This document shows positions 28,459-45,327 of a stretch of 64,000 bases of DNA, in pieces. The stretch's first letter is position 1, and each line of letters begins with the position of its first letter. Source of the DNA: a virus; IMG/VR virus record IMGVR_UViG_3300046167_000554, positions 64,001-128,000 of that record; one strand, written 5' to 3'. Below the pieces are notes generated by a model. That model saw only the letters and a program-made list of their open reading frames with translations. It had not been told where the DNA came from and ran no database searches. Made by a program: the position numbers and the translations under genes.

Positions 28459-29704
28459 GACTGTAGACACATTCAGTACTATTGAAGACTTCAGAGTCAG
28501 GTATAACGAACTTGCAACTGATGTCGGAGATAAGTCGGGACTAAGAACTCAACAAACGGGTACTATTATTGATGCTGTAAATTCTATAGAAGATAAATCA
28601 TTCTTCTTCCAAGAGTTTATTTACAATGTAACATCATCACAAACAGTATTCAATGGAGACGATGCATTTGATAATTCCTTACTTTTCAGAAGAGATAGAA
28701 TTCAAGTATTCCATATAGATGGTGGAGTAAGTAAACACTTACTAGAGGGTAATGACTACTCTATTGCATCACCTGATGGAAATCTTCATAAAGAAATTCA
28801 ATTAAACGTAGCTGCAGAAAGTGGAGATAAACTAGTTGTTTACTCATTCACTGGTTCTTACTTAGGAACTGTTTCAAGTGGAACAGGTGCAGTTGGATAC
28901 TTCTCAGAAACATCTGCAAACACAATCTATAATAACAATGATAGTGGAATAATTTTAAATGGAACTTCAGTAGGAAGAACTACAGCACTTGAATCAGGTT
29001 ATGAAATACAATTAGCAGGTGAAACATACGTAGAAGATAACGTAACACTTGCAACAAGTAAGACACTTACTGCACCTACTTTGACTACAGGTGGTGCATC
29101 TATTACAGGAACAACTGGAACAGGATTTACAAACATAACATCCACATTGTTTAGTGGTAATGTTAATGGTACAACTGCAACCTTATCGGGTACAGTTACT
29201 GGTGGTTCTTTAACAGATGGTACTTTAACTTCTACAGGTGGTACTATTACTGGTGCAGCTTCTATTACATCTACAAAATTCGTAGGTGATGTCTATAAGG
29301 ATGATGGAACCACAAAGATTTTAGAAAACTCAACGGGTGCATTGACTGGTACAGTATCTAGTTTATCAAACCATGATACCGATGACCTTTCAGAAGGTAC
29401 TGCAAAATTCTTTACTGATGCAAGAGCAAGAAGTGCAATTAGTGTTGGTGGAGATTTAACATATAATAGTAGTACAGGTGTGATTTCCTTTACTCAAACT
29501 GAAGGTGATATCACTGCAATTACTACAAATAGTAGTAGTGGTTTGTCAGGTGGAGTCACAGTAGGAGCAGCTTCTTTGTCTGTAAATACATCGAATGGTG
29601 TGAAAAAAGTAAGTAATAATGTAGTTTTAGATTATGAGACTGTAAGTTCTGCACCAAGTAGTGTTGGTTCAACTTCAACTGGTCACTTATGGTTTGTGAT
29701 ATGA
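28451..29704 (+). CDS. Fibre/appendage protein ending in GHLWFV motif
   Basis: Thr/Gly-rich; TDDLSEG..FFTDARAR repeat; C-term SAPS..TGHLWFVI. Confidence 0.65.
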   Translation: MAKTVDTFSTIEDFRVRYNELATDVGDKSGLRTQQTGTIIDAVNSIEDKSFFFQEFIYNVTSSQTVFNGDDAFDNSLLFRRDRIQVFHIDGGVSKHLLEGNDYSIASPDGNLHKEIQLNVAAESGDKLVVYSFTGSYLGTVSSGTGAVGYFSETSANTIYNNNDSGIILNGTSVGRTTALESGYEIQLAGETYVEDNVTLATSKTLTAPTLTTGGASITGTTGTGFTNITSTLFSGNVNGTTATLSGTVTGGSLTDGTLTSTGGTITGAASITSTKFVGDVYKDDGTTKILENSTGALTGTVSSLSNHDTDDLSEGTAKFFTDARARSAISVGGDLTYNSSTGVISFTQTEGDITAITTNSSSGLSGGVTVGAASLSVNTSNGVKKVSNNVVLDYETVSSAPSSVGSTSTGHLWFVI

Positions 29705-29705
29705 T

Positions 29706-31013
29706 ATGTCAGACGAAATATATTTAAATACTGGTACAACGATACAACAGCCCTATCAAGCGCAAGGGCCTGCTAACGCACAACAACCCGTTATTGCACA
29801 ACAGGTTAGAAACTATACTGCTAATGCAAGACAACCTAGTGAGTATCAGACTCGTACACCATTTACATATAGAAATCCAAGTAATGCACGTCAACCTAGT
29901 ATAAGGAATACACAAAGTCCCTTTACATATGCAAGACAAGGTCAATCACCATTTACGTATAACTTTAGGTCACCTAGTACATATACAAGACAGGGTCAAA
30001 CACCATTTACATACAGTCATAGACAACCTATAACATATGCAAGACAGGGTCAAACACCATTTACGTATGATTATCAGTCACCTTCAACATATAGAACCCC
30101 TGTAAATCAACAAGAACCTAATATAAGGAGTAAACAATCTCCTTTTACATATGGTCATCCAGCAGCTGCCCAATCACCTTTTACATATAACTATAGAAGT
30201 CCGTTTACGTATCAAAGAACTGGTCAGTCACCATTTACATATCAAGCAACTGGGACAACACCAGTGATATACAGTTACCAACAACCTTTTCCGTATATTG
30301 CAAATGGACAGCAACCAAACATAAGGAATGCACAACAACCATATCCATATAGTACTACACAAGCATCTTCCCATCAGCAACCAAATTTAGCAAGTGGAAG
30401 ACAACCTTACATATATGCAGCGTACACTTATCACAATACTGGTTCTACAGGAACTACTGCCCCAGTATATCAAATAGATGTTAGTTCACAAGACCAAAAT
30501 GATGCGAATGCTTATATTTGGGTTAAAACTGTAGGAAGTAATTTAGAAGTATATGTATCTGCAAACTTCGACAATTATGCTGACTTTACATCAACAAGTG
30601 GTGGCAGTGGGACTATAAGTACTAACACTAATTATAAAGTTGCAACATTGGTAGATGGAGCTGGGTATAAAGTAAGATATACAGCAGGTAGTTACTATAA
30701 TATAACACAAGAGGGTGGTGAACCTACAGTAATAGGATTAGTACTAGCAAGTAATGTTCCAAACTCAACCAGTACAACTGGTGGTGTTACTATAGGAACA
30801 AACTCACTTTGGGGGTCAGGTAGTGTTCATTATGTACGTTCTAGAGTTCGTGCTTTGCCAGATGAAGGATTTGAAGGAATCGGAAGTGCTGGTGCGTCTG
30901 TAGATATAAATCTATTCTTTGATAAAACAGGAGCTACAACTATCTCATACCCAATTTCAATGATGTGTGAAACAGATTTCCCTGAAGAGGAAGAAGAGGA
31001 AGAAGGAGTATAA
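29706..31013 (+). CDS. Pro-delimited repeat protein A plus ~190 aa C-terminal beta domain
   Basis: Units FTYARQGQSP, FTYNFRSP, NIRNAQQP; acidic tail. Confidence 0.75.
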   Translation: MSDEIYLNTGTTIQQPYQAQGPANAQQPVIAQQVRNYTANARQPSEYQTRTPFTYRNPSNARQPSIRNTQSPFTYARQGQSPFTYNFRSPSTYTRQGQTPFTYSHRQPITYARQGQTPFTYDYQSPSTYRTPVNQQEPNIRSKQSPFTYGHPAAAQSPFTYNYRSPFTYQRTGQSPFTYQATGTTPVIYSYQQPFPYIANGQQPNIRNAQQPYPYSTTQASSHQQPNLASGRQPYIYAAYTYHNTGSTGTTAPVYQIDVSSQDQNDANAYIWVKTVGSNLEVYVSANFDNYADFTSTSGGSGTISTNTNYKVATLVDGAGYKVRYTAGSYYNITQEGGEPTVIGLVLASNVPNSTSTTGGVTIGTNSLWGSGSVHYVRSRVRALPDEGFEGIGSAGASVDINLFFDKTGATTISYPISMMCETDFPEEEEEEEGV

Positions 31014-31016
31014 ACC

Positions 31017-31838
31017 ATGCCTACAGGACAACAGCCATATATATACCAACACCAAATCGTGTTCCAACAGGTAACTATTACTGAGCTTCAAGGACAGTCT
31101 CCTTTTACTTATCAACATCAGTCTCCTTTTACTTATCAAAATTCAGGAAGAAATCCTATTGCTAATGTATCTGCACAACAACCTTTTCCGTATATTGCAA
31201 ATGGACAGCAACCTTATCCATATATTGCAAATGGACAAGAACCAAACATAAGGAATGCACAACAACAGTTCTTTTATCAAGACCAAAGGAATGCAAGACA
31301 ACCTATTATCTATCAACATAGGTCTCCACTTACATATAGAAATCCTGTTAATGCACAAAATCCTATAAGTGGAGTTAATGCACAACAACCTTACCCTTAC
31401 ATTGCAAATGGTCAAAGTCCATATATTGCAGATGCACAACAACCATATCCGTATACTGCAAATGCACAAAATCCAAGTATCGAATCTGCACAACAACCTT
31501 ATCCATATATTGCAAATGCAAGAAACCCTAGTACATATCAACATAGGTCTCCACTTACGTATAGGAATCCTGTATCGGGTCAACAACCTCATATTGTAAA
31601 TAAACAATCACCATTTTTCTATACAGGTTCTTACCAAGTAGCGTATGCATATAGAAGTCCATTCATTGCACAAGTGCAACAACCCTCAACTAGACCTGTA
31701 GGCCCAGTTGCAAAAGTAAAAGGAATATACCGAAATAATAACGGAACTGTAGAGAAAGTAAACCAAGTATATGTAAATGATGGTGGTTCTTTAGAAAAAA
31801 TTCATCAATCTGTACCTACTGCTCAGTTTCAGAAATAA
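31017..31838 (+). CDS. Pro-delimited repeat protein B (antiparallel complement of A)
   Basis: Units YPYIANGQEP, STYQHRSP; C-term KVKGIY..VEKVNQVYV. Confidence 0.75.
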   Translation: MPTGQQPYIYQHQIVFQQVTITELQGQSPFTYQHQSPFTYQNSGRNPIANVSAQQPFPYIANGQQPYPYIANGQEPNIRNAQQQFFYQDQRNARQPIIYQHRSPLTYRNPVNAQNPISGVNAQQPYPYIANGQSPYIADAQQPYPYTANAQNPSIESAQQPYPYIANARNPSTYQHRSPLTYRNPVSGQQPHIVNKQSPFFYTGSYQVAYAYRSPFIAQVQQPSTRPVGPVAKVKGIYRNNNGTVEKVNQVYVNDGGSLEKIHQSVPTAQFQK

Positions 31839-36750: not shown

Positions 36751-38721
36751 TGGCAGGCGAAAAGAATTTTAATATTAAAAATGGTCTATCCGTTGGTGGT
36801 GTAGAAGTTATAACTAGTGCTGGTGCCTTTTAACAGGTACAGCAATTGTAGAATCAATTGACGATAGAGTCAATGCTCTATTAGTGGCAGGAACAGGAAT
36901 CACATTAACATATGATGATTCTGCTGGAAGTTTAACAGTATCAGGACAACAAGGTGATATCACAGGTATCGTTGCAGGTGCCTTGGTCTTACTGGTGATG
37001 CAACTTCAGGTGATGCAACATTAGCAGTTGGTGCTGGAACAGGTATTACTGTAAATGCAGATGACATTGCAATCGACCTTAAAGATGAAGATGACATGTT
37101 ATCAGACAGTGCATCTCACGCTGCATCACAGCAGTCTATCAAAGCATACGTTGATGCAAGTATCTTAACAAAAGATAATACAGACGAGATTACAGAAGGA
37201 AGTTCAAACCTCTACTTTACTGCAGAAAGAGTTGCAGATACAGTTGGTGGAATGGTCGGTTCAAATACAGAAACAGGAATTACAGTCTCATATGACGATA
37301 GTGATAACACTTTAGACTTTGTAGTTGGAACACTTAACCAAAATACAACAGGTAGTGCAGCTACTTTAACTACTCCAAGAACTATTTCAGGTACTGCATT
37401 TGATGGTTCTGCAGACATTACTTTAACGACTGCTGGAATTACAGAAAACACAAACCTATACTTCACAAACGAAAGAGTTGACGACAGAGTTAATTCTTTA
37501 ATTGTTGCTGGAACAGGACTTACATCTACATATGATGACAGTGCTGGAACACTTACACTTAACGGACAAGTTGGTGATGTGACTAGTGTAGTTGCTGGTG
37601 CTGGTTTAACAGGTGGTGGAACTTCAGGTGACGTTACTTTAGACCTAGATGCGACAGTAGCAGGTGACGGACTTGCACACTCAAGTGGTGTTCTTTCCGT
37701 AACAGTAGATGACAGTTCAATCGAAACAGATTCAGACACATTAAGAGTCAAAGCAAGTGGTGTTACTAATGCCATGTTAGCAGGTTCTATTGCAAACAGT
37801 AAACTTGCAAATGATAGTGTAACAGTTAACTCACAAGAAGTTGACTTAGGTTCTTCTATCACATTAACGACTGCAAATGTCGGTGAGAATACAAACCTTT
37901 ACTATACAGACGAAAGAGTTGACGATAGAGTTAATGCATTATTGGTTGCTGGTACTAACATAACAACATCATATGATGACAGTGCTGGAACATACACAAT
38001 TAACTCTTCAGGTAAAACACAAGAAGAAATAGAAGACATTGTAAACGGATTAGTAGTTGGTGGAACAAACATCACTTCTACATATGATGACGCTGCTGGA
38101 ACACTTACACTTGCTGGATTATCAGACAGTGCTATCCAAGGTAAAATTACTGTAACGGATGCTGGTGGAGATGGTTCACTTGCATACAGTGGTGGAACAA
38201 TTACATATACTGGCCCTAGTGCATCTGAGACAAGAGCTCATTTAAGTGCTGGAACTGGTGTAACATATTCAGGTGGTGCATTCAGTATTGGTCAGGCAGT
38301 TGCAACTTCAAGTAACGTAACGTTTGCAGACTTAGTAGTAAGTGGTAACCTAACAGTTAATGGTGCTACTTCAACAGTAAGTTCTACTAATACAACAATG
38401 ACCGACTCATTAATTGAGTTAGGAAATGGAACTACTGGTTCTCCAGCTGGAGACGCAGGTATAGTCATTGAAAGAGGTGATGAAAGTAACGTGTTTATGG
38501 GTTGGGACGACAGTGCATCAAGTTTTGCATTCGGAACAACTACTGCAACAGGTGCTTCAACTGGTGCATTAACAGTGACACCAGCAGCGGTATCCACGGG
38601 TGCATTGACAATAACAAATGCATCTAATAGTGGTGGAACTGCAAGAAATGTTTACCAATCAACATCAGCTCCTACGAGTGGTGATGGTGCGGTTGGTGAT
38701 TTATGGGTACTTTACTCCTAA
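36750..38721 (+). CDS. Long fibre protein (indels near 36830 and 36982) ending in GDLW motif
   Basis: Starts MAGEKNFNIKNGL; repeats NLYFT.ERVDDRV..L.AGT.IT.TYDDSAGT; C-term SAPTSGDGAVGDLWVLYS. Confidence 0.7.
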
Positions 38722-38772
38722 TATAGGGGTTTAGTATCTCAATAAATAACAATAATTAATGGAATAAAGTAA

Positions 38773-39870
38773 ATGGCATCAGGTTCACAAAAAGTAAAAA
38801 CACCAACAGGTTGGAATTCAACCCAAGGTGCATGGGTAAAGACAGGTTCTTCCACATGGAAAGCAGTCGACCAAATTTATGTTAAAACACCTACAGGGTG
38901 GAATGATGCATCAGGTCAAGAATTAACTCAAATACCTTATCCGTATATTGCAAATGCACAAGAACCAAACATAAGGGATGCACAACAACCTTATCCGTAT
39001 ATTGCAAATGCACAAGAACCAAACATAAGGGATGCACAACAACCATACCCTTACATTGCAAATAATCAGCAACCAAACATAAGGGATGCACAACAACCTT
39101 ATCCTTATATAGCGAACGCAAGACAACCTTCTACATATCAACATAGAAGTCCATTTACTTACAGAAACCCAAGTAATGCAAGACAACCTAGTACGTATCA
39201 ACATAGAAGTCCATTTACGTATCAAAGAACTGGTCAAACACCTTTCACATATCAATATAGAAGTCCATTTACGTATGCTAGACAAGGTCAAACACCATTT
39301 ACGTATAACTATAGGTCACCTAGTACGTATGCAAGACAGGGTCAAACACCATTTACGTATAACTTTAGGTCACCTAGTACGTATGCAAGACAAGGTCAAA
39401 CACCTTTCACATACCAGTATAGAAGTCCCTTTACATATGCAAGACAGGGTCAAACACCATTTACGTATAACTATAGGTCTCCGTTCACTTACAGGAACCC
39501 TGTATCTGCACAACAACCTACTATTAAGAATGCACAGCAACCTACTATTAAGAGTGCTCAGCAACCTAATATAAGGTCAGCACAACAACCTAATATAAGG
39601 TCAGCACAAGAACCAAATATTAGGAATGCAAGACAACCAAATAACGCACAGAATCCATTTACGTTCCAAAACCCGTTTACATTCAATGCAAGACAACCAA
39701 ACAATGCAAGACAACCAAACAATGCAAGACAACCGAATAATGCAAGACAACCAAACAATGCAAGAAGTCCAAGTATTGCTCAACAGCCAGGCTCATATAT
39801 CGCATACTTCCAACAATCATATTTCTTTACATTTGGAAGTCCAAGTCAGTTCCCTGGCGAGGAACCTTAA
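38773..39870 (+). CDS. Pro-delimited repeat protein C
   Basis: N-term VKTPTGW/WKAVDQIYVK docking-type motif then 36 units of 6/8/10 aa. Confidence 0.8.
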   Translation: MASGSQKVKTPTGWNSTQGAWVKTGSSTWKAVDQIYVKTPTGWNDASGQELTQIPYPYIANAQEPNIRDAQQPYPYIANAQEPNIRDAQQPYPYIANNQQPNIRDAQQPYPYIANARQPSTYQHRSPFTYRNPSNARQPSTYQHRSPFTYQRTGQTPFTYQYRSPFTYARQGQTPFTYNYRSPSTYARQGQTPFTYNFRSPSTYARQGQTPFTYQYRSPFTYARQGQTPFTYNYRSPFTYRNPVSAQQPTIKNAQQPTIKSAQQPNIRSAQQPNIRSAQEPNIRNARQPNNAQNPFTFQNPFTFNARQPNNARQPNNARQPNNARQPNNARSPSIAQQPGSYIAYFQQSYFFTFGSPSQFPGEEP

Positions 39871-39880
39871 GGAGTAAATT

Positions 39881-40843
39881 ATGCCAATTGGATTTAGAGT
39901 CATACCATATCACGCACATGCAAGGACTTCTGTTAATGTACAGACGCCGTTCACTTTTCAAGCACCATTCACGTTTCAGGCACCCTTTACGTTTCAGGCA
40001 CCTTTTACGTTTCAGAACCCGTTCATTGCACAAGCAAGACAACCGAATAATGCAAGACAACCTTTTACGTTTCAGAACCCATTTACGTACAATTATAGAA
40101 GTCCTTATACGTACAACCATAGGTCACCATTTACGTACCAACATAGAAGTCCTTTTACGTATCAACATAGAAGTCCTTTTACGTATCAACATAGGTCACC
40201 ATTTACGTACAGAAGTCCTGTATCTGCAAGAGAACCAAACATAAGGTCAGCACAACAACCTTATCCGTATATTGCATCTGCACAAGAACCAAACATAAGG
40301 TCGGCACAACAACCTTATCCGTATATTGCTAACAATCAACAACCTACGATTAAGAATGCACAACAACCTTATCCGTATATTGCTAACAATCAACAACCTA
40401 ATATAAGGAATGCTCAACAACCTTATCCGTATATTGCAAATGCACAAGAACCTAATATTAGGTCAGCACAGCAACCTTATCCGTATATTGCTAATGCACA
40501 AGAACCTAATATTAGAAACAATCAAGCACCATTTACATACCAAAACCCTGTAAATGGACAAGAACCTAATATTAGAAACGCTCAGACTCCGTTTACGTAT
40601 CAAAGAACTGGTCAAACACCATTTACTTACCAGTATAGAAGTCCTTCTACTTATGCAAGACAGGGTCAGACTCCGTTTACGTATCAACATAGAAGTCCGT
40701 TCACATATCAAAGAACTGGTCAGACTCCATTTACGTATCAACATAGAAGTCCATTCACGTATGCAAGACAGGGTCAAACCCCCGAAGCAAGATGGGATGG
40801 AGTTGGTTCACAACAGTGGCCTGCAACACCTATTAGTGGATAG
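39881..40843 (+). CDS. Pro-delimited repeat protein D (antiparallel complement of C)
   Basis: AGGAG RBS; 36 units mirroring C. Confidence 0.8.
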   Translation: MPIGFRVIPYHAHARTSVNVQTPFTFQAPFTFQAPFTFQAPFTFQNPFIAQARQPNNARQPFTFQNPFTYNYRSPYTYNHRSPFTYQHRSPFTYQHRSPFTYQHRSPFTYRSPVSAREPNIRSAQQPYPYIASAQEPNIRSAQQPYPYIANNQQPTIKNAQQPYPYIANNQQPNIRNAQQPYPYIANAQEPNIRSAQQPYPYIANAQEPNIRNNQAPFTYQNPVNGQEPNIRNAQTPFTYQRTGQTPFTYQYRSPSTYARQGQTPFTYQHRSPFTYQRTGQTPFTYQHRSPFTYARQGQTPEARWDGVGSQQWPATPISG

Positions 40844-40864
40844 TACTAAAGTAAAAGAAAGAAG

Positions 40865-40886
40865 AGGGACTATGTCCCTTTTTTTT
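40865..40886 (+). terminator. Rho-independent terminator
   Basis: AGGGAC-TAT-GTCCCT followed by T run. Confidence 0.75.
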
Positions 40887-40902
40887 CGTCCTAAATATAT
40901 GC

Positions 40903-42477
40903 ATGGAACATATTGAATCATTAGAAGACCTAAAACAGGTAGTAAAACCAAATCAAAACTATAGGGAAAAATCTTTCCATATTGGTAATTTCGATTTAAA
41001 AAGAGAAAAGACTGAAAAAGAAGAAGAGACTTTAAGTATGTTAGAGTACCTTTTTAATGAAATATGTCCACCATTAAAATATTTCACTTGGGGTGATTTT
41101 TTAGAACAAAGAAAGAAAGACAAATTTACGGGTTTCAATGGTTTACAGAACCAATCTTCTACCTACCACTACTTCTTACCACATGGTTATACTGCAGAGG
41201 TAAGACCCGAAAAGGTGACAAGAGGTCATGCTGGTATGGATATGAAGAATTTAGAAGGCTATATTGATATTAGAGACATTGCAAATTGGGAAGTTATTGA
41301 AGGTGGAAAGGATAAAGACCATCCACATGCATATGAAAGTCTTTCCTCAATGTATTACCATAGTGCAAAAGCACATTGGATTATACAAGACATCCAAAAG
41401 AATGGACTAATACATCCTATTCAAGGTATAACAAAGGAAAGTGGAGACAAGTTTGGATTTGCAATTCATCCAGGCTCTGTTCGTTCAGGATGTTTTGAAG
41501 AGATGGAAGACCCATCTATGGAAGTAATGATATGGGACAAACATGATGTCATTACTGGTATTGAACCAATGACATTAAATGATGCACTTGAGTTTTGGAA
41601 AAATAGATTAGAAGAACAGGATGCAGATGTATACAACGTATCCTTTATGTTCAATGAAGGTCATTTAGAGTTCCAACACGACCTATCTAATTTAAATTTC
41701 AGACCAAAGGTACATGAGTTCAATAAGAAGGTACATGAACTTTCCAAAGGTAAACCCATCAATATTTACATTGGATATGATAGTAGACACACTACATTAC
41801 CTGAAATTAATAAACATTCTATACTCACCAGTATTAAAAGGGGTCTAGGTAATGGTTGGTTTCATGACCAAGTCAGATGGGAACCTGAGATTAAGTTCCT
41901 TGACAAATCTAAAATTCCCGAGTATAATAGAGAGTATGCAAATCAATCTACTGAGTTTACATATAGTAGATTTCTAATTCCTTACCTAGAAAACTATGAA
42001 GGGTTTAGTATATTCTTAGATGATGATTTCATCTTTGAGAAAAGTATACTACCAATGTTCTATTATCTAAATCCTGATGATGCAGTTGCATGTGTAAAGT
42101 ATCCACATTACGAACATGATACAACTAAATTTGATGGAGAAGTCAACATAGATTATCCATGTAAGTTGTGGTCAAGTCTAATGGTGTTTAATAATGGACA
42201 TGAAGATTGCAAGAAACTAACACCCGAAGTTGTTAACACTTGGACTGGAAAACAGTTACATCAGTTTGAGTGGACAGATAAGATTAGTGAGATACCTCAA
42301 AAATATGTCTTTGTAGAGGGTTATGATGACCCCAAAGAGAAGTGGGATTTTACTGCAATTCACTATACAAGAGGTGGCCCATGGGTAGAAGGTATGGATT
42401 TTAGTGGTATAAATAATTTGGAACACTATAATAAGTGGTTAAACAAACATAAGAACGAGGTAATTAATAATGAATAG
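40903..42477 (+). CDS. Two-domain protein: ParB/Srx-like N-domain + GT-A (GT8-like) glycosyltransferase
   Basis: IYIGYDSR, STEFTYSRFLIPYL, FLDDDF (DxD), YPCKLWSSLMVFN, LHQFEW, IHYTRGGPW. Confidence 0.8.
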   Translation: MEHIESLEDLKQVVKPNQNYREKSFHIGNFDLKREKTEKEEETLSMLEYLFNEICPPLKYFTWGDFLEQRKKDKFTGFNGLQNQSSTYHYFLPHGYTAEVRPEKVTRGHAGMDMKNLEGYIDIRDIANWEVIEGGKDKDHPHAYESLSSMYYHSAKAHWIIQDIQKNGLIHPIQGITKESGDKFGFAIHPGSVRSGCFEEMEDPSMEVMIWDKHDVITGIEPMTLNDALEFWKNRLEEQDADVYNVSFMFNEGHLEFQHDLSNLNFRPKVHEFNKKVHELSKGKPINIYIGYDSRHTTLPEINKHSILTSIKRGLGNGWFHDQVRWEPEIKFLDKSKIPEYNREYANQSTEFTYSRFLIPYLENYEGFSIFLDDDFIFEKSILPMFYYLNPDDAVACVKYPHYEHDTTKFDGEVNIDYPCKLWSSLMVFNNGHEDCKKLTPEVVNTWTGKQLHQFEWTDKISEIPQKYVFVEGYDDPKEKWDFTAIHYTRGGPWVEGMDFSGINNLEHYNKWLNKHKNEVINNE

Positions 42478-43027
42478 TTTAGTATATACAGAAGAGAGTA
42501 AGTTAATAGTTGAAAAACCTAATGGGTTAAAGTATGAATTTGATAATGTTGATGCTCCTGATTTAGGATTTGAGTATGATATGGTTGTCTATGATGACAT
42601 AGAAGTCAAAGTTTTAAAGTGGGATGATGAGAAGGGTGACTTCAATTCACAAGATAAGATACCATTAACAAACGAAGAGAAGGATGCAATTGAAACTTAC
42701 ATTGCAAACTCTGAACCACCTATTGGATGGAACCTGAACAATCAATATCTACAACAAATAAATGAAATTTGTCATCAATATGTTGATGATTGTTCTGAAA
42801 AGTATGGTTTTCAAAATCATATAGAGTGTACATATGTAGGAAGAGAGGGGTCAGCACATCCTTACAGAAGTAATGCAAAACGTGTACTAGAATATGCAGA
42901 TGCAGTATGGTGTATCTATGTACAGATTGCAGATGAAATTCAATCTACAAGAGAAGATTTATTAAAATCTATAGATGAATACCTTCAAGTTTTACCCGAA
43001 GCACAACAAGCTAGCTCCCGATTCTAG
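42470..43027 (+). CDS. Hypothetical, possibly fibre assembly chaperone
   Basis: Acidic 185 aa; TATAAATA at 42408-42415 upstream; YADAVW motif. Confidence 0.45.
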   Translation: MNSLVYTEESKLIVEKPNGLKYEFDNVDAPDLGFEYDMVVYDDIEVKVLKWDDEKGDFNSQDKIPLTNEEKDAIETYIANSEPPIGWNLNNQYLQQINEICHQYVDDCSEKYGFQNHIECTYVGREGSAHPYRSNAKRVLEYADAVWCIYVQIADEIQSTREDLLKSIDEYLQVLPEAQQASSRF

Positions 43028-43048
43028 ACAACAGTAAAAAGGTTTTCA

Positions 43049-43774
43049 GTGAAGATACATTATGTAACTGAACCATTCAAGTTATCAGAAATACCTTTAA
43101 AGGATGTTTATGTCTTTGATGATTTCTTATCTTCAGAAATGCATCGTGCAATAGATTCACATATATATCGTTCAAGTATATGGTCTAAGACAAATCAAGT
43201 TAGAGGAGATAGTCCTACTGGGTTAGCACATCATAGTTTTTGGGGTGCAACATATTTTCGTGGAGTAGAAGGTGGAAGTAAGAAAGTAGTTGATAATGAT
43301 ATGAATCCAAGGGATACTTATCTTGCACAATGGTTTAATAGAAAGATACAAACCGACTTTGGATTTCAGTGGGTCAGATTTCAATACATGGGACTGAATT
43401 CACAAACACAAGGTCTTCAAGGAACAACACATGCAGATTGTTCACCTGAAGATGAGTGGAATCTTTCATTTCTTTACTATACCAATAAATTTTGGAATAA
43501 GGAATGGGGTGGTTCATTGAGATTTTACGATGAAATGCAACAAGGAATTGATGGTAGAGATGAACATATTAAAAATCATCAAATTGGTGAAGTAGAGTTT
43601 AAACCCAACAGACTGTTAATGTTTGACGGAAGAATTCCACATGGTGCAGATGCACCTTCTCCTAAAGCAAGATATATGGATAGAAAATCCATTGTTCTTA
43701 GAGGAGACGAAATAAGATTAATAAAAGATACAAGTGAGTGGTTTCATGCCAACGATAGAATTTACAACATTTAA
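43049..43774 (+). CDS. 2OG-Fe(II) oxygenase (prolyl-hydroxylase-like)
   Basis: HAD..LYY..W..EWGGSL.F..FKPNRLLMFDG.IPH..R. Confidence 0.82.
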   Translation: MKIHYVTEPFKLSEIPLKDVYVFDDFLSSEMHRAIDSHIYRSSIWSKTNQVRGDSPTGLAHHSFWGATYFRGVEGGSKKVVDNDMNPRDTYLAQWFNRKIQTDFGFQWVRFQYMGLNSQTQGLQGTTHADCSPEDEWNLSFLYYTNKFWNKEWGGSLRFYDEMQQGIDGRDEHIKNHQIGEVEFKPNRLLMFDGRIPHGADAPSPKARYMDRKSIVLRGDEIRLIKDTSEWFHANDRIYNI

Positions 43775-44630
43775 TACAAAAACACTAGAGGACTTTAGGC
43801 CTGTTCTTGCTAAGAAACTTACACCTGAGTGGTGGAAAAAAACTAAAGTTAATGTTGATGTACGAGGACATAAAGTGCAAACTATACGTTCTTGTCCTGC
43901 TATGGATGATTGGTTAAAGAGTGGTTGGTTGTTAACTGCAAATAGAGACATACATGTAGATTTAGAGACTGGTTCTGATAGTACTTTTAAGACAAGAGCT
44001 CATAATGGGTATGGTTCTCCATCTCATCCTAATGTGCAGACTGCAAATGCATTTGAATACTTAGGAGATTCAGGCCCTGTTAAGGATGCATTCAAAATGA
44101 AGAATCCATGGAACATAATAACTCCAAAGGGGTATTCATGTTTTTACTTAGACCCATTCTTATTTCAAAATGAATACTTTGCAACATGGCAAGGTATAAT
44201 AGATACTGATAACTTTAATAAAAATATTGATAATGCACAAATCATATTCTACCCTAAAGTAACTCACTCATTTACTATAACAAAGGGTACTCCTCTTTGT
44301 CAAGTAATACCATTCAAAAGGGAGACTTGGAATGCATCTTACATTGTACAGGACTCACAAACCTTTACAGAGAATAGGTCTATAGTTACCTCTCATCATG
44401 ATAACGAGTTTCCTACTATGGACGAGATGGGTAGACATAAGGGTCTATCGGAAGAGGAAAGAAAGATAACTGGTAAGATGGGTGCATATAGAAAACAAGG
44501 ATACTGGCAAGAGAAAGGTAAAAACTTTAAACAAGATAATCCACCACCTGAATGTCCTATGCATGTGGTCAGTGAAGACACACCTGAAATTCAATTAGAA
44601 CTTCCAATAGGAGACAATAATGGCAGTTAG
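43734..44630 (+). CDS. DUF6065-like protein
   Basis: CPAMDDWLKSGW, NPWNIITPKGYSC, GIIDTD, KGTPLCQVIPFKRE. Confidence 0.55.
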   Translation: MSGFMPTIEFTTFNTKTLEDFRPVLAKKLTPEWWKKTKVNVDVRGHKVQTIRSCPAMDDWLKSGWLLTANRDIHVDLETGSDSTFKTRAHNGYGSPSHPNVQTANAFEYLGDSGPVKDAFKMKNPWNIITPKGYSCFYLDPFLFQNEYFATWQGIIDTDNFNKNIDNAQIIFYPKVTHSFTITKGTPLCQVIPFKRETWNASYIVQDSQTFTENRSIVTSHHDNEFPTMDEMGRHKGLSEEERKITGKMGAYRKQGYWQEKGKNFKQDNPPPECPMHVVSEDTPEIQLELPIGDNNGS

Positions 44631-45327
44631 ATTACTATTTCCTACCTTTATATTTGAAGTAGATTTACTTAATGATGATTTACATCCTAATGATGGACTC
44701 ACTAAAGAGTACCTAAATCTATTAAAAGATACTATGGATGGAATGAGACAAAGAGACCCCGAAGGACGAAGAATATCTAATGCATATACTGGGTGGCAAT
44801 CCAACGATGGTTGTGAAACAAATCCAATATTTGCACAACTACATAAAAAGATATCACGAGTCTTTCAGAGAGAGGTTATTCCATTTCATGGTTTGGACTC
44901 ATCAAATGCAGTCATGCAAATGGGTAATATGTGGGCAAACATAAACGATTTTAGTGCATGGAACAAACCACATTTACATAATGGGTGTTGGTATAGTGGT
45001 GCATTCTATATCCATGCAGATGGAGACGAAGGTTCTTTAGATATTATAGATAAAGACTGTAAGGTCGTATCAGACTTTCCACATTCAACTAGAACACCTA
45101 CATCTTATAGTATTCAACCTACATCAGGAAAGTTAGTGTTGTTCCCTAGTGGTACTATGCATATGGTAGAACCTAACATGACAAACAAAGAACGTTATTC
45201 AGTTGCATTTAATATTGAAATGAGATATCAGACTAATGAAGGTAGATATCCAATAAATGAAGATACTTACAATGGGGACGAATTTAAATTTGAAATAGAC
45301 CCTAATGGAGACCCCATACTGAAGTAG
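44620..45327 (+). CDS. 2OG-Fe(II) oxygenase (TIGR02466-like)
   Basis: LFPT, GWQS, MWANIN..N.PHLH..SGAFY, LVLFPS..HMVEPN..RYSVAFN. Confidence 0.85.
   Translation: MAVRLLFPTFIFEVDLLNDDLHPNDGLTKEYLNLLKDTMDGMRQRDPEGRRISNAYTGWQSNDGCETNPIFAQLHKKISRVFQREVIPFHGLDSSNAVMQMGNMWANINDFSAWNKPHLHNGCWYSGAFYIHADGDEGSLDIIDKDCKVVSDFPHSTRTPTSYSIQPTSGKLVLFPSGTMHMVEPNMTNKERYSVAFNIEMRYQTNEGRYPINEDTYNGDEFKFEIDPNGDPILK

What the first reader, a model, noticed from the sequence alone, without database searches (positions are those of the whole stretch)
38773..40843. Reverse-complementary PROTEIN pair C/D: a unit-by-unit antiparallel pairing code
Seen: cutting at the anchor prolines, C reads N->C with unit lengths 10,8,10,8,10,8,10,8,6,6,8,10,8,10,8,10,8,10,8,10,8,6,6,8,8,8,8,8,6,6,8,6,6,6,6,6. 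D read C->N gives exactly the same 36 lengths. Matched units are of opposite class: YPYIANAQEP<->FTYARQGQTP (10), NIRxAQQP/TIKxAQQP<->FTYQHRSP (8), NNARQP/VSAQQP<->FTFQAP/FTYRNP (6). Both proteins use both classes, and each class switch in C is mirrored in D (C: FTYRNP-VSAQQP-five NIR/TIK 8-mers; D reversed: VSAREP-FTYRSP-five FTY 8-mers). Two junction/terminal pairs are ambiguous in class. The DNA is not an inverted repeat, so the symmetry is at peptide level. Inference: C and D form a heterodimeric two-stranded antiparallel beta-zipper (even unit lengths keep register) of ~284 residues, roughly 90 nm if fully extended. The aperiodic unit order would fix partner and register, analogous to base pairing. 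I know of no described phage fibre built this way.
Basis: partly seen in the sequence, partly recalled or inferred. Interest (0 to 1): 0.97.

Follow-up and report, generated by a model that had tools for sequence, protein, structure and literature searches.

The report
Mirror-complementary phage fibre protein pair
Two neighbouring genes of an uncultured marine T4-like phage encode proline-punctuated repeat proteins in which one, read backwards, matches the other unit for unit in length and is of the opposite type; 61 natural variants keep this rule through matched insertions and deletions, so the two chains most likely zip together head-to-tail into a fibre shaft of a design I could not find described.

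Summary
Cut at prolines, C (38773-39870) read N->C and D (39881-40843) read C->N give the same 35 unit lengths (6, 8 or 10 residues). The 36th needs a cut with no proline anchor. All 35 matched units are of opposite class: aromatic versus small residue at position 3. The DNA has no inverted repeat.

The rule holds in relatives. In 61 distinct homologous pairs from IMG/VR (about 24-72 units), edit distance of C to reversed D sums to 302, against 1186 forward and 1216 shuffled. Array lengths correlate at r=0.97. Matched units are of opposite class in 93% (51% expected). Sister lineages show equal indels at mirrored positions. Covariation within units lies on the antiparallel diagonal.

The conserved ends (C N-terminus, D C-terminus) fall together, and so do the variable ends. 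An intrachain hairpin is excluded in some relatives.

Best reading (about 0.7): C and D pair antiparallel, unit by unit, as the shaft of a tail-fibre segment in the host-recognition cluster. The geometry (two-stranded beta ribbon, sandwich or higher oligomer) is open, because structure prediction gave nothing.

No Pfam, PHROG, PDB or cultured-phage relative was found. This scan has already noted and confirmed the same design in other genomes.

The parts
38773..39870 (+). Gene C, 365 aa plus stop
   Evidence: ORF. Homologues with a conserved N-terminus occur in 157 IMG/VR loci. Identical peptide units carry synonymous differences.
38773..38937 (+). C N-terminal conserved domain (aa 1-55, motif KVKTPxGW...WVKT..TWK..QIYVKTPTGW); proposed proximal docking end
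   Evidence: Many invariant columns in alignment A1; near-identical in all homologues.
38938..39789 (+). C repeat array, aa 56-339, 36 Pro-terminated units: 10,8,10,8,10,8,10,8,6,6,8,(10,8)x5,6,6,8x5,6,6,8,6x5
39790..39867 (+). C C-terminal tail (26 aa, aromatic-rich). In many relatives this position carries a Hint autoprocessing domain or a globular domain of about 190 aa
39869..39874 (+). Shine-Dalgarno AAGGAG for D. It overlaps C's stop codon and lies 6 nt before D's ATG, which suggests coupled translation
39881..40843 (+). Gene D, 320 aa plus stop
39950..40783 (+). D repeat array, aa 24-301, 35 units whose reversed lengths equal C's first 35 units and whose classes are opposite
40784..40840 (+). 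D C-terminal conserved tail (motif RWDGxxxQQWPxTPIS). In the antiparallel model it sits beside C's N-terminal domain
37096..38721 (+). Upstream fibre gene (541 aa; PHROG structural and tail-fibre hits). Its last 25 residues (RNVYQSTSAP...GAVGDLWVLYS) are nearly invariant upstream of every C homologue; candidate docking partner
40903..42477 (+). Downstream 524-aa protein with a GT8-like nucleotide-sugar transferase C-terminal half. An ORF of 511-560 aa follows D in 57 of the 61 distinct loci
29706..31838 (+). Second, paralogous mirror pair A (29706-31013) and B (31017-31838) in the same genome. The unit strings mirror each other if 16- and 20-residue composites and two 9-for-8 substitutions are allowed

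Best explanation
C and D are two co-expressed late structural proteins that bind each other side by side in opposite polarity. Unit i of C lies against unit n-i of D.

Every contact pairs an aromatic-type unit (xTY/xTF...P) with a small-residue-type unit (NIR../YIA../VSA../NNA..P, or YPYIA..P) of the same length. The proline ends of both chains then coincide along about 280 residues.

The irregular order of lengths (6, 8, 10) and of classes acts as an address. It fixes the cognate partner, because the genome also has an A/B pair, and it fixes the register. The number of units sets the length of the shaft.

The conserved end (C N-terminal domain plus D C-terminal tail) would dock on the invariant C-terminal peptide of the fibre protein encoded just upstream. 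The variable end (C C-terminus plus D N-terminus) would be distal; in relatives it carries add-on domains.

Shown: the sequence rule, its conservation, the compensated indels, the covariation, the polarity of conservation, the synteny and the translational coupling. Inferred: physical binding, docking, a beta-type extended conformation, and the role as tail-fibre shaft. The stoichiometry (CD or a multiple such as (CD)3) is unknown.
For: The window's pair:
- 35 of 35 unit lengths are mirrored and 35 of 35 classes are opposite.
- There are 36 Pro-Pro coincidences at one ungapped antiparallel shift, against at most 22 in 1000 shuffles.

61 distinct homologous pairs with 24-72 units:
- Summed edit distance is 302 for C against reversed D, 1186 forward and 1216 shuffled.
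- Array length in C against D gives r=0.97 over 196-532 aa.
- Matched units are of opposite class in 2227 of 2393 cases, against 1232 expected.

Compensated indels. On a tree of the neighbouring GT-like gene, 14 of 20 sister contrasts with a change go the same way. Five are exactly equal (18/18 twice, 24/24, 26/26, 38/38), and the indels sit at mirrored positions.

Covariation inside 8-mers lies on the antidiagonal. F1 covaries with n5/n7, and F5/F7 with n1/n3, not the parallel combinations. This gives distinct pair types.

Interchain pairing. In L006-type C proteins, within the long central (6,6,8,8,8,8) blocks, the 8-mers are F and the 6-mers n, so only D offers same-length partners of opposite class there.

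Polarity and context:
- The conserved termini are C's N-terminus and D's C-terminus; the variable ends are the other two.
- Co-occurrence is obligate: 135 of 136 and 113 of 113.
- No fused ORF was found.
- An SD-coupled start for D fits production of the two chains together.
- The pair lies between VrlC-like and neck genes, which is the host recognition cluster of PMC7029224.

Aromatics occur only at odd unit positions, and a small residue sits at position L-3 of n units in 71-91% of pairs. This fits one shared face of a two-residue periodic structure.
Against: There is no physical evidence of binding.

Some homologous pairs differ in length without compensation: L004 by 18 aa, L008 by 88 aa, and L026/L029. 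These may be repeat collapse in short-read assemblies, but they could be real.

The 61 pairs are related, so the counts overstate the number of independent events. The sister contrasts number only 20.

Part of the covariation reflects unit subtypes that travel in blocks.

The residue register is not unique. Aromatic-opposite-small pairs number 44 at the Pro-Pro shift and 55 two residues away.

The A/B pair needs one-residue bulges.
Confidence: 0.72

Rival explanations
1. Both chains lie, in opposite polarity, along a third component, for example a trimeric core supplied by the upstream fibre protein. They would not lie against each other, and the mirror would reflect a shared template.
For: The upstream fibre gene is strictly syntenic and has an invariant C-terminal peptide. 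Phage fibres are usually trimers (established knowledge).
Against: A template does not explain why matched units must be of opposite class. It also does not explain the antidiagonal covariation between C and D residues. The upstream fibre varies from 477 to 968 aa with no evident relation to the array length.
Confidence: 0.08
2. Each protein folds on itself as serial hairpins at the '6,6' class switches. The C/D mirror would be a relic of a split ancestral hairpin gene, with no present contact.
For: Unit strings are locally palindromic around '6,6'. C:C antiparallel alignment gives 26 Pro coincidences. The genes are adjacent and in hairpin order.
Against: In L006-type proteins the long central blocks of one chain hold 8-mers of one class only and 6-mers of the other, so that chain offers no intrachain partner there. 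A relic would not keep compensated indels in recent sister lineages. Block sizes within C do not match each other.
Confidence: 0.06
3. C and D are disordered, Pro-rich chains, possibly hydroxylated or glycosylated, that act as spacer or brush polypeptides. The mirror would arise from concerted repeat evolution without pairing.
For: AlphaFold2 gives no fold for D alone or for a read-through C-D fusion. A P4H-like 2OG oxygenase and a GT-like gene lie downstream.
Against: Recombination within one gene cannot produce equal indels at mirrored positions in another gene whose DNA is not similar in that orientation. Strong peptide-level selection on individual unit positions is not expected of a brush.
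Confidence: 0.05
4. The symmetry is a nucleic-acid feature: an inverted DNA repeat or RNA pairing read in two frames.
For: None beyond three inverted matches of 14-20 nt.
Against: There is no inverted repeat over the arrays. Identical peptide units use different codons at 30% of positions, including AGT/TCA serine switches. Matched units are complementary in class, not identical.
Confidence: 0.01

Closest known systems
T4-type long tail fibre (gp34-gp37) and other myophage fibres
   Same: C and D sit in the tail-fibre and host-recognition module of a T4-like genome. They are encoded in series after a fibre gene. They have a conserved joint end and a variable distal end, and their length varies with repeat number (PMC7029224).
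   Different: Known fibres are parallel homotrimers (established knowledge). Here two different chains show an antiparallel complementary code. There is no sequence match to any fibre family.
Streptococcal antigen I/II stalk
   Same: A long stalk is made by antiparallel association of two different repeat arrays, one of them proline-rich, and their extents must match.
   Different: The stalk is a single chain folded back, with helix/PPII geometry, and belongs to a Gram-positive adhesin. I know of no unit-level length and class code or two-gene arrangement there. No homology.
Tandem beta-zipper of bacterial fibronectin-binding repeats on FNI modules (PMC4412574)
   Same: Binding is by antiparallel beta-strand addition. 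The order of short motifs in one partner is the reverse of the order of units in the other.
   Different: In that case a disordered peptide binds folded modules of a host protein. Here both partners are repeat arrays of the same phage, and they are mutually complementary along about 280 residues.
Antiparallel coiled-coil arms of SMC/Rad50 proteins (my own knowledge)
   Same: The two antiparallel strands must match in length, and their interruptions are mirrored. This is visible from sequence alone.
   Different: Those arms are alpha-helical and intramolecular, with heptad periodicity.
Hedgehog/BIL-type Hint autoprocessing domains, and C-terminal self-cleaving chaperone domains of phage fibres
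   Same: Many C homologues end in a Hint-like domain of about 150 aa. It starts at a Gly|Cys-Phe junction after a poly-Gly linker and ends in His-Asn. It sits at the distal end, where other phage fibres carry removable assembly domains.
   Different: The window's own C has no such domain. Pfam scores are below gathering cut-offs except Vint in L077. The residue after His-Asn is not Cys/Ser/Thr, so full splicing is unlikely.

Membership tests
Phage tail-fibre protein families (Pfam / PHROGs) | Significant sequence match to a fibre family profile | tested here: not met
   C has no Pfam family and neither C nor D has a PHROG family; D's only Pfam hit is the Cementoin match treated below. No PDB chain matches by sequence or profile.
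Phage tail-fibre protein families (Pfam / PHROGs) | Location in the late structural tail-fibre and host-recognition module | tested here: met
   Baseplate, VrlC-like (DUF4815) and fibre genes lie upstream. Neck, sheath and portal genes lie downstream. This matches the host recognition cluster of PMC7029224.
Phage tail-fibre protein families (Pfam / PHROGs) | Parallel homotrimeric assembly | not testable with these tools
   No confident model was obtained.
Collagen-like triple helix | Gly at every third residue | tested here: not met
   Units are 6, 8 or 10 residues ending in Pro, and Gly is rare.
Cementoin / trappin transglutaminase-substrate repeats (PF10511) | Tandem hexapeptide repeats with Gln and Lys donor/acceptor residues, in mammalian trappins | tested here: not met
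   One 17-residue stretch of D scores 28.1 bits against a cut-off of 27. D has a single Lys. I take the match to be compositional.
Hint / intein-like autoprocessing domain | Hint fold profile match with an N-terminal Cys nucleophile and a C-terminal His-Asn | tested here: not met
   Absent from the window's C. Present in many homologues, mostly below Pfam gathering scores.
Mirror-complementary two-chain array (proposed kind) | Unit lengths of chain 1 read N->C equal those of chain 2 read C->N | tested here: met
   35 of 35 in the window. Most of the 61 pairs lie far below their shuffles.
Mirror-complementary two-chain array (proposed kind) | Matched units are of opposite class | tested here: met
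   35 of 35 in the window's pair. 93% of 2393 matched units, against 51% expected.
Mirror-complementary two-chain array (proposed kind) | Indels in one gene are compensated at the mirrored site of the other | tested here: met
   with a few exceptions (L004, L008, L026/L029).
Mirror-complementary two-chain array (proposed kind) | The two chains bind each other physically | not testable with these tools
   This needs co-expression, cross-linking or cryo-EM.

The most novel reading that the evidence does not exclude
A natural, sequence-programmable protein-protein pairing code. At least five complementary unit pairs are seen:
- 10-mer xTYxxQGxxP with YPYIA.....
- 8-mer xTYx[HYF]RSP with [NT]I[RK].....
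- 8-mer xTYx[NAS]R[QSY]P with YIAxA...
- 6-mer xTYRxP with [VAS]x[AG]QxP
- 6-mer xTFQxP with NxARxP

These would specify partner, polarity, register and length of a two-chain fibre. That makes it a protein analogue of a nucleic-acid duplex. Phages would lengthen or shorten it by matched repeat changes, and one virion could use it for two orthogonal fibres (A/B and C/D).
Probability: 0.45. Interest if true: 0.95.

Novelty: categorically new. Interest (0 to 1): 0.88.

Why it matters
If the two chains really pair as the sequences imply, this is a building principle for extended protein assemblies that can be read from sequence. Length-matched, class-complementary short units would set partner, polarity and register. 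It has evolved naturally and been tuned over hundreds of variants.

It would explain a conserved but unannotated four-gene cassette in the host-recognition cluster of abundant marine T4-like phages. It would give a handle on how these phages vary fibre length. It would also offer a designable, orthogonal hetero-association module for protein engineering.

The comparative data already supply a large natural mutagenesis set, with compensated indels and unit-pair preferences. That makes the hypothesis directly testable with two recombinant proteins.

Tried and rejected
Structure and complex prediction gave nothing usable.
- Complex prediction on C plus D with alignments A1 and A2 returned 'no answer' (ipSAE 0.00). 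This counts neither for nor against binding.
- AlphaFold2 of D with 22 homologues gave mean pLDDT 33.8 and no secondary structure.
- As a proxy for the heterodimer I folded a read-through translation of locus L096. There C and D are in frame, seven codons apart, and the stops were read as Gly. The alignment held 14 such read-throughs. Mean pLDDT was 28.4, which is uninformative.

Searches found no lead.
- The ESM Atlas feature search had no hit above 0.84.
- PDB sequence and profile searches found nothing.
- tblastn of C, and of its N-terminal domain, against 50,697 phage records gave only one weak low-complexity hit. The low-complexity filter and withheld near-identical records limit this result.
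- Pelagibacter phage HTVC008M has no match.
- In the profile search of 1.84 billion representatives, the long hits are unrelated octapeptide repeats such as LTHDSVKP and MTTQMKTP.
- Literature searches found no description.

Readings rejected:
- A DNA inverted repeat.
- An intrachain hairpin.
- A fused C-D gene; none was found in 157 loci.
- The similarity of C's N-terminal motif to B's C-terminal motif is only marginal (E=0.009 for a single comparison), so I do not rely on it.

Full report
**What is there.** The window is bases 64001-128000 of a 153.5-kb IMG/VR virus record. It is a T4-like myophage. Baseplate hub and wedge genes, a VrlC-like giant protein (DUF4815), fibre genes, neck, terminase, sheath and portal genes follow each other on the + strand. 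The tail sheath is 48% identical to that of Pelagibacter phage HTVC008M, its best cultured relative. The finding lies between the VrlC-like gene and the neck genes. This is the region called the host recognition cluster in pelagimyophages and cyanomyophages (PMC7029224).

Gene C (38773-39870, 365 aa) and gene D (39881-40843, 320 aa) are adjacent and co-oriented. D has a strong AAGGAG ribosome-binding site that overlaps C's stop codon.

**The observation.** I cut both proteins after every proline and merged 'YP' with the following 8-mer. C has a 55-residue N-terminal domain, 36 units of 6, 8 or 10 residues (aa 56-339, 284 aa), and a 26-residue tail. D has a 23-residue head, 35 units (aa 24-301), and a 19-residue tail.
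- I call a unit F if its third residue is aromatic and n otherwise. With this rule all 35 matched units are of opposite class.
- A parse-free check gives the same answer. One ungapped antiparallel alignment puts 36 prolines opposite prolines. The maximum is 22 in 1000 shuffles of D's unit order, 23 for the parallel orientation, 26 for C:C, 23 for D:D, and 13-16 for cross pairs with the paralogues A and B.
- The DNA has no inverted repeat beyond three 14-20-nt matches.
- Units of identical peptide sequence differ at 30% of their codons, including AGT/TCA serine switches. The constraint therefore acts on the peptides.

**Relatives.** Back-translated searches of IMG/VR gave 157 loci. They yielded 61 distinct adjacent C-like/D-like pairs, with about 24 to 72 units per chain and very different architectures. 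The rule holds throughout.
- The summed edit distance between C's unit string and reversed D is 302. It is 1186 for forward D and 1216 for shuffled D. In nearly every pair the observed value is far below the minimum of 200 shuffles.
- Array lengths in C and D correlate at r=0.97 over 196-532 residues.
- Of 2393 length-matched unit pairs, 2227 (93%) are of opposite class, against 51% expected. The class strings of C and reversed D are bitwise complements over 50 or more units in several lineages.
- To reduce phylogenetic non-independence, I built a tree of the conserved downstream gene and took disjoint sister pairs. Of 20 contrasts with a change of at least 6 residues, 14 go the same way in C and D. 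Five are exactly equal (18/18 twice, 24/24, 26/26, 38/38). The inserted or deleted units sit at mirrored positions; for example, L001 and L003 differ by one 10+8 pair in the same block of both strings.
- Exceptions exist: L004, L008 and L026/L029. They occur at zero tree distance, which suggests repeat collapse in assemblies, but this is not proven.
- The two genes always travel together. The C N-terminal motif is followed by the D C-terminal motif in 135 of 136 cases, and the reverse holds in 113 of 113. They are never fused.

**Evidence that the partners are the two chains, in antiparallel contact.**
- In L006-type proteins, within the long central (6,6,8,8,8,8) blocks of one chain, the 8-mers are F and the 6-mers n. 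A same-length partner of opposite class for those units exists only in the other chain.
- Within 8-mers, covariation between the F unit and its n partner is concentrated on the antidiagonal. F1 covaries with n5 and n7. F5 and F7 covary with n1 and n3. The parallel combinations are weak although those positions vary.
- This resolves into distinct pair types: xTYx[HYF]RSP with [NT]I[RK]...; xTYx[NAS]R[QSY]P with YIAxA...; xTYxxQGxxP with YPYIA...; xTYRxP with [VAS]x[AG]QxP; and xTFQxP with NxARxP.
- The polarity of conservation fits. C's N-terminus and D's C-terminus are nearly invariant, while C's C-terminus and D's N-terminus vary. In the antiparallel model the conserved ends meet and the variable ends meet.
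- Aromatic residues occur only at odd unit positions. The n units carry a small residue three positions before their proline in 71-91% of pairs, and the 10-mer F units have an invariant Gly at position 7 where the partner has Tyr at position 3. This is a big-opposite-small pattern on one face. Together with the exclusively even unit lengths, it points to a two-residue periodic, extended conformation.
- The exact residue register is not settled. The Pro-Pro shift gives 44 aromatic/small oppositions, and the shift two residues away gives 55.

**Likely role.**
- Upstream of every C homologue lies a fibre gene of variable length (477-968 aa). Its last 25 residues are almost invariant: RN[VIM]YQSTSAP...GAVGD[LM]W[VI]LYS. 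An ORF of 511-560 aa follows D in 57 of the 61 loci; the window's copy is GT8-like.
- I infer that the conserved end of the C/D assembly docks on that peptide. C/D would then form the shaft of a distal fibre segment whose length is set by the unit count.
- The distal end is where relatives add domains. Some carry a domain of about 190 aa rich in Gly, Tyr, Pro, Ser and Thr. Some carry a Hint-type autoprocessing domain of about 150 aa after a poly-Gly linker, beginning Gly|Cys-Phe and ending His-Asn. Others, like this window, carry nothing.
- The same genome has a second pair, A/B (29706-31838), with the same logic but one-residue bulges, and with a globular C-terminal domain on A.

**What is not known.** No tool gave a structure. 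The complex predictor returned no verdict. AlphaFold2 of D alone, and of a natural-sequence read-through fusion from locus L096, gave pLDDT near 30. Stoichiometry, fold and fibre length therefore remain inference. The options include a two-stranded ribbon of about 90 nm, stacked strands of about 17 nm, or a multiple such as (CD)3.

**Comparison with what is known.**
- Neither protein matches any PHROG family or PDB chain, and C matches no Pfam family. D's only Pfam hit, a 17-residue Cementoin match at 28.1 bits, I take to be compositional.
- No cultured phage in the collection carries the pair.
- The family is small: 231 clusters at 50% identity in 1.84 billion proteins, and some of those are spurious.
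- Papers on pelagimyophage genomes do not mention it, and targeted literature searches found nothing similar.
- The closest functional analogies are the antigen I/II stalk (PMC6586375), the tandem beta-zipper (PMC4412574) and antiparallel SMC arms. None has a two-gene, unit-level length and class code.
- This scan has already noted the same design in other genomes, and follow-up agents there reached the same reading. My tests here were made independently on this window's family.

**Verdict.** Antiparallel C:D pairing is strongly supported by comparative evidence (about 0.7). The specific beta-zipper heterodimer is plausible but unproven. I rate it categorically new as a building principle, with interest 0.88.

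Noticed in passing
Loci L022, L024, L028, L077, L100, L112 (C homologues, last ~170 aa); proteins P0001-P0060: Many C homologues end in a Hint/intein-like domain. It follows a poly-Gly linker, starts at a Hedgehog-like Gly|Cys-Phe junction and ends in His-Asn followed by Phe, Tyr or Met. It sits at the distal end next to D's N-terminus, so it could cleave itself off or even ligate C to a nearby nucleophile.
   Followed up: partly
window 40903-45327: A cassette follows D: a GT8-like transferase (524 aa; an ORF of similar size follows D in 57 of 61 loci), a PF13640 prolyl-hydroxylase-type 2OG oxygenase (43049-43774) and a PF13759 2OG oxygenase (44620-45327). The proline-punctuated, Thr-rich C/D units are candidate substrates. 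This was not tested.
   Followed up: partly
window 29706-31838: A second mirror pair, A/B, lies in the same genome. A carries a C-terminal domain of about 190 aa with no family match. B ends in a small motif weakly like C's N-terminal domain (E=0.009).
   Followed up: partly
window 38647-38721 and 29681-29704; loci: The fibre genes upstream of both pairs end in a related peptide (..SAP..G[DH]LW...). Upstream of C homologues the last 25 residues are almost invariant although the fibre length varies twofold.
   Followed up: partly
Loci L004, L008, L026, L029: At zero or near-zero tree distance from concordant relatives, these pairs have uncompensated differences of 18-88 residues between the C and D arrays. 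The cause is either repeat collapse in short-read assembly or real standing variation.
   Followed up: no
Loci L031, L037, L047 (C homologues) and the ~290-330-nt gap before D: Some C homologues carry a non-Hint C-terminal domain of about 190 aa rich in Gly, Tyr, Pro, Ser and Thr. An unusually long C-D spacer follows, which might hold a small gene.
   Followed up: no
window 38741-38749: CAATAAATA lies 24 nt upstream of C's start and resembles the T4 late promoter TATAAATA. That motif has 14 exact copies in the window against 6.3 expected.
   Followed up: no
window 39176-39574, 39626-39877, 39888-40244, 40554-40916 and several minus-strand ORFs: Long open frames in other phases and on the opposite strand overlap C and D. 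They are a by-product of the stop-poor repeats and are not genes.
   Followed up: no
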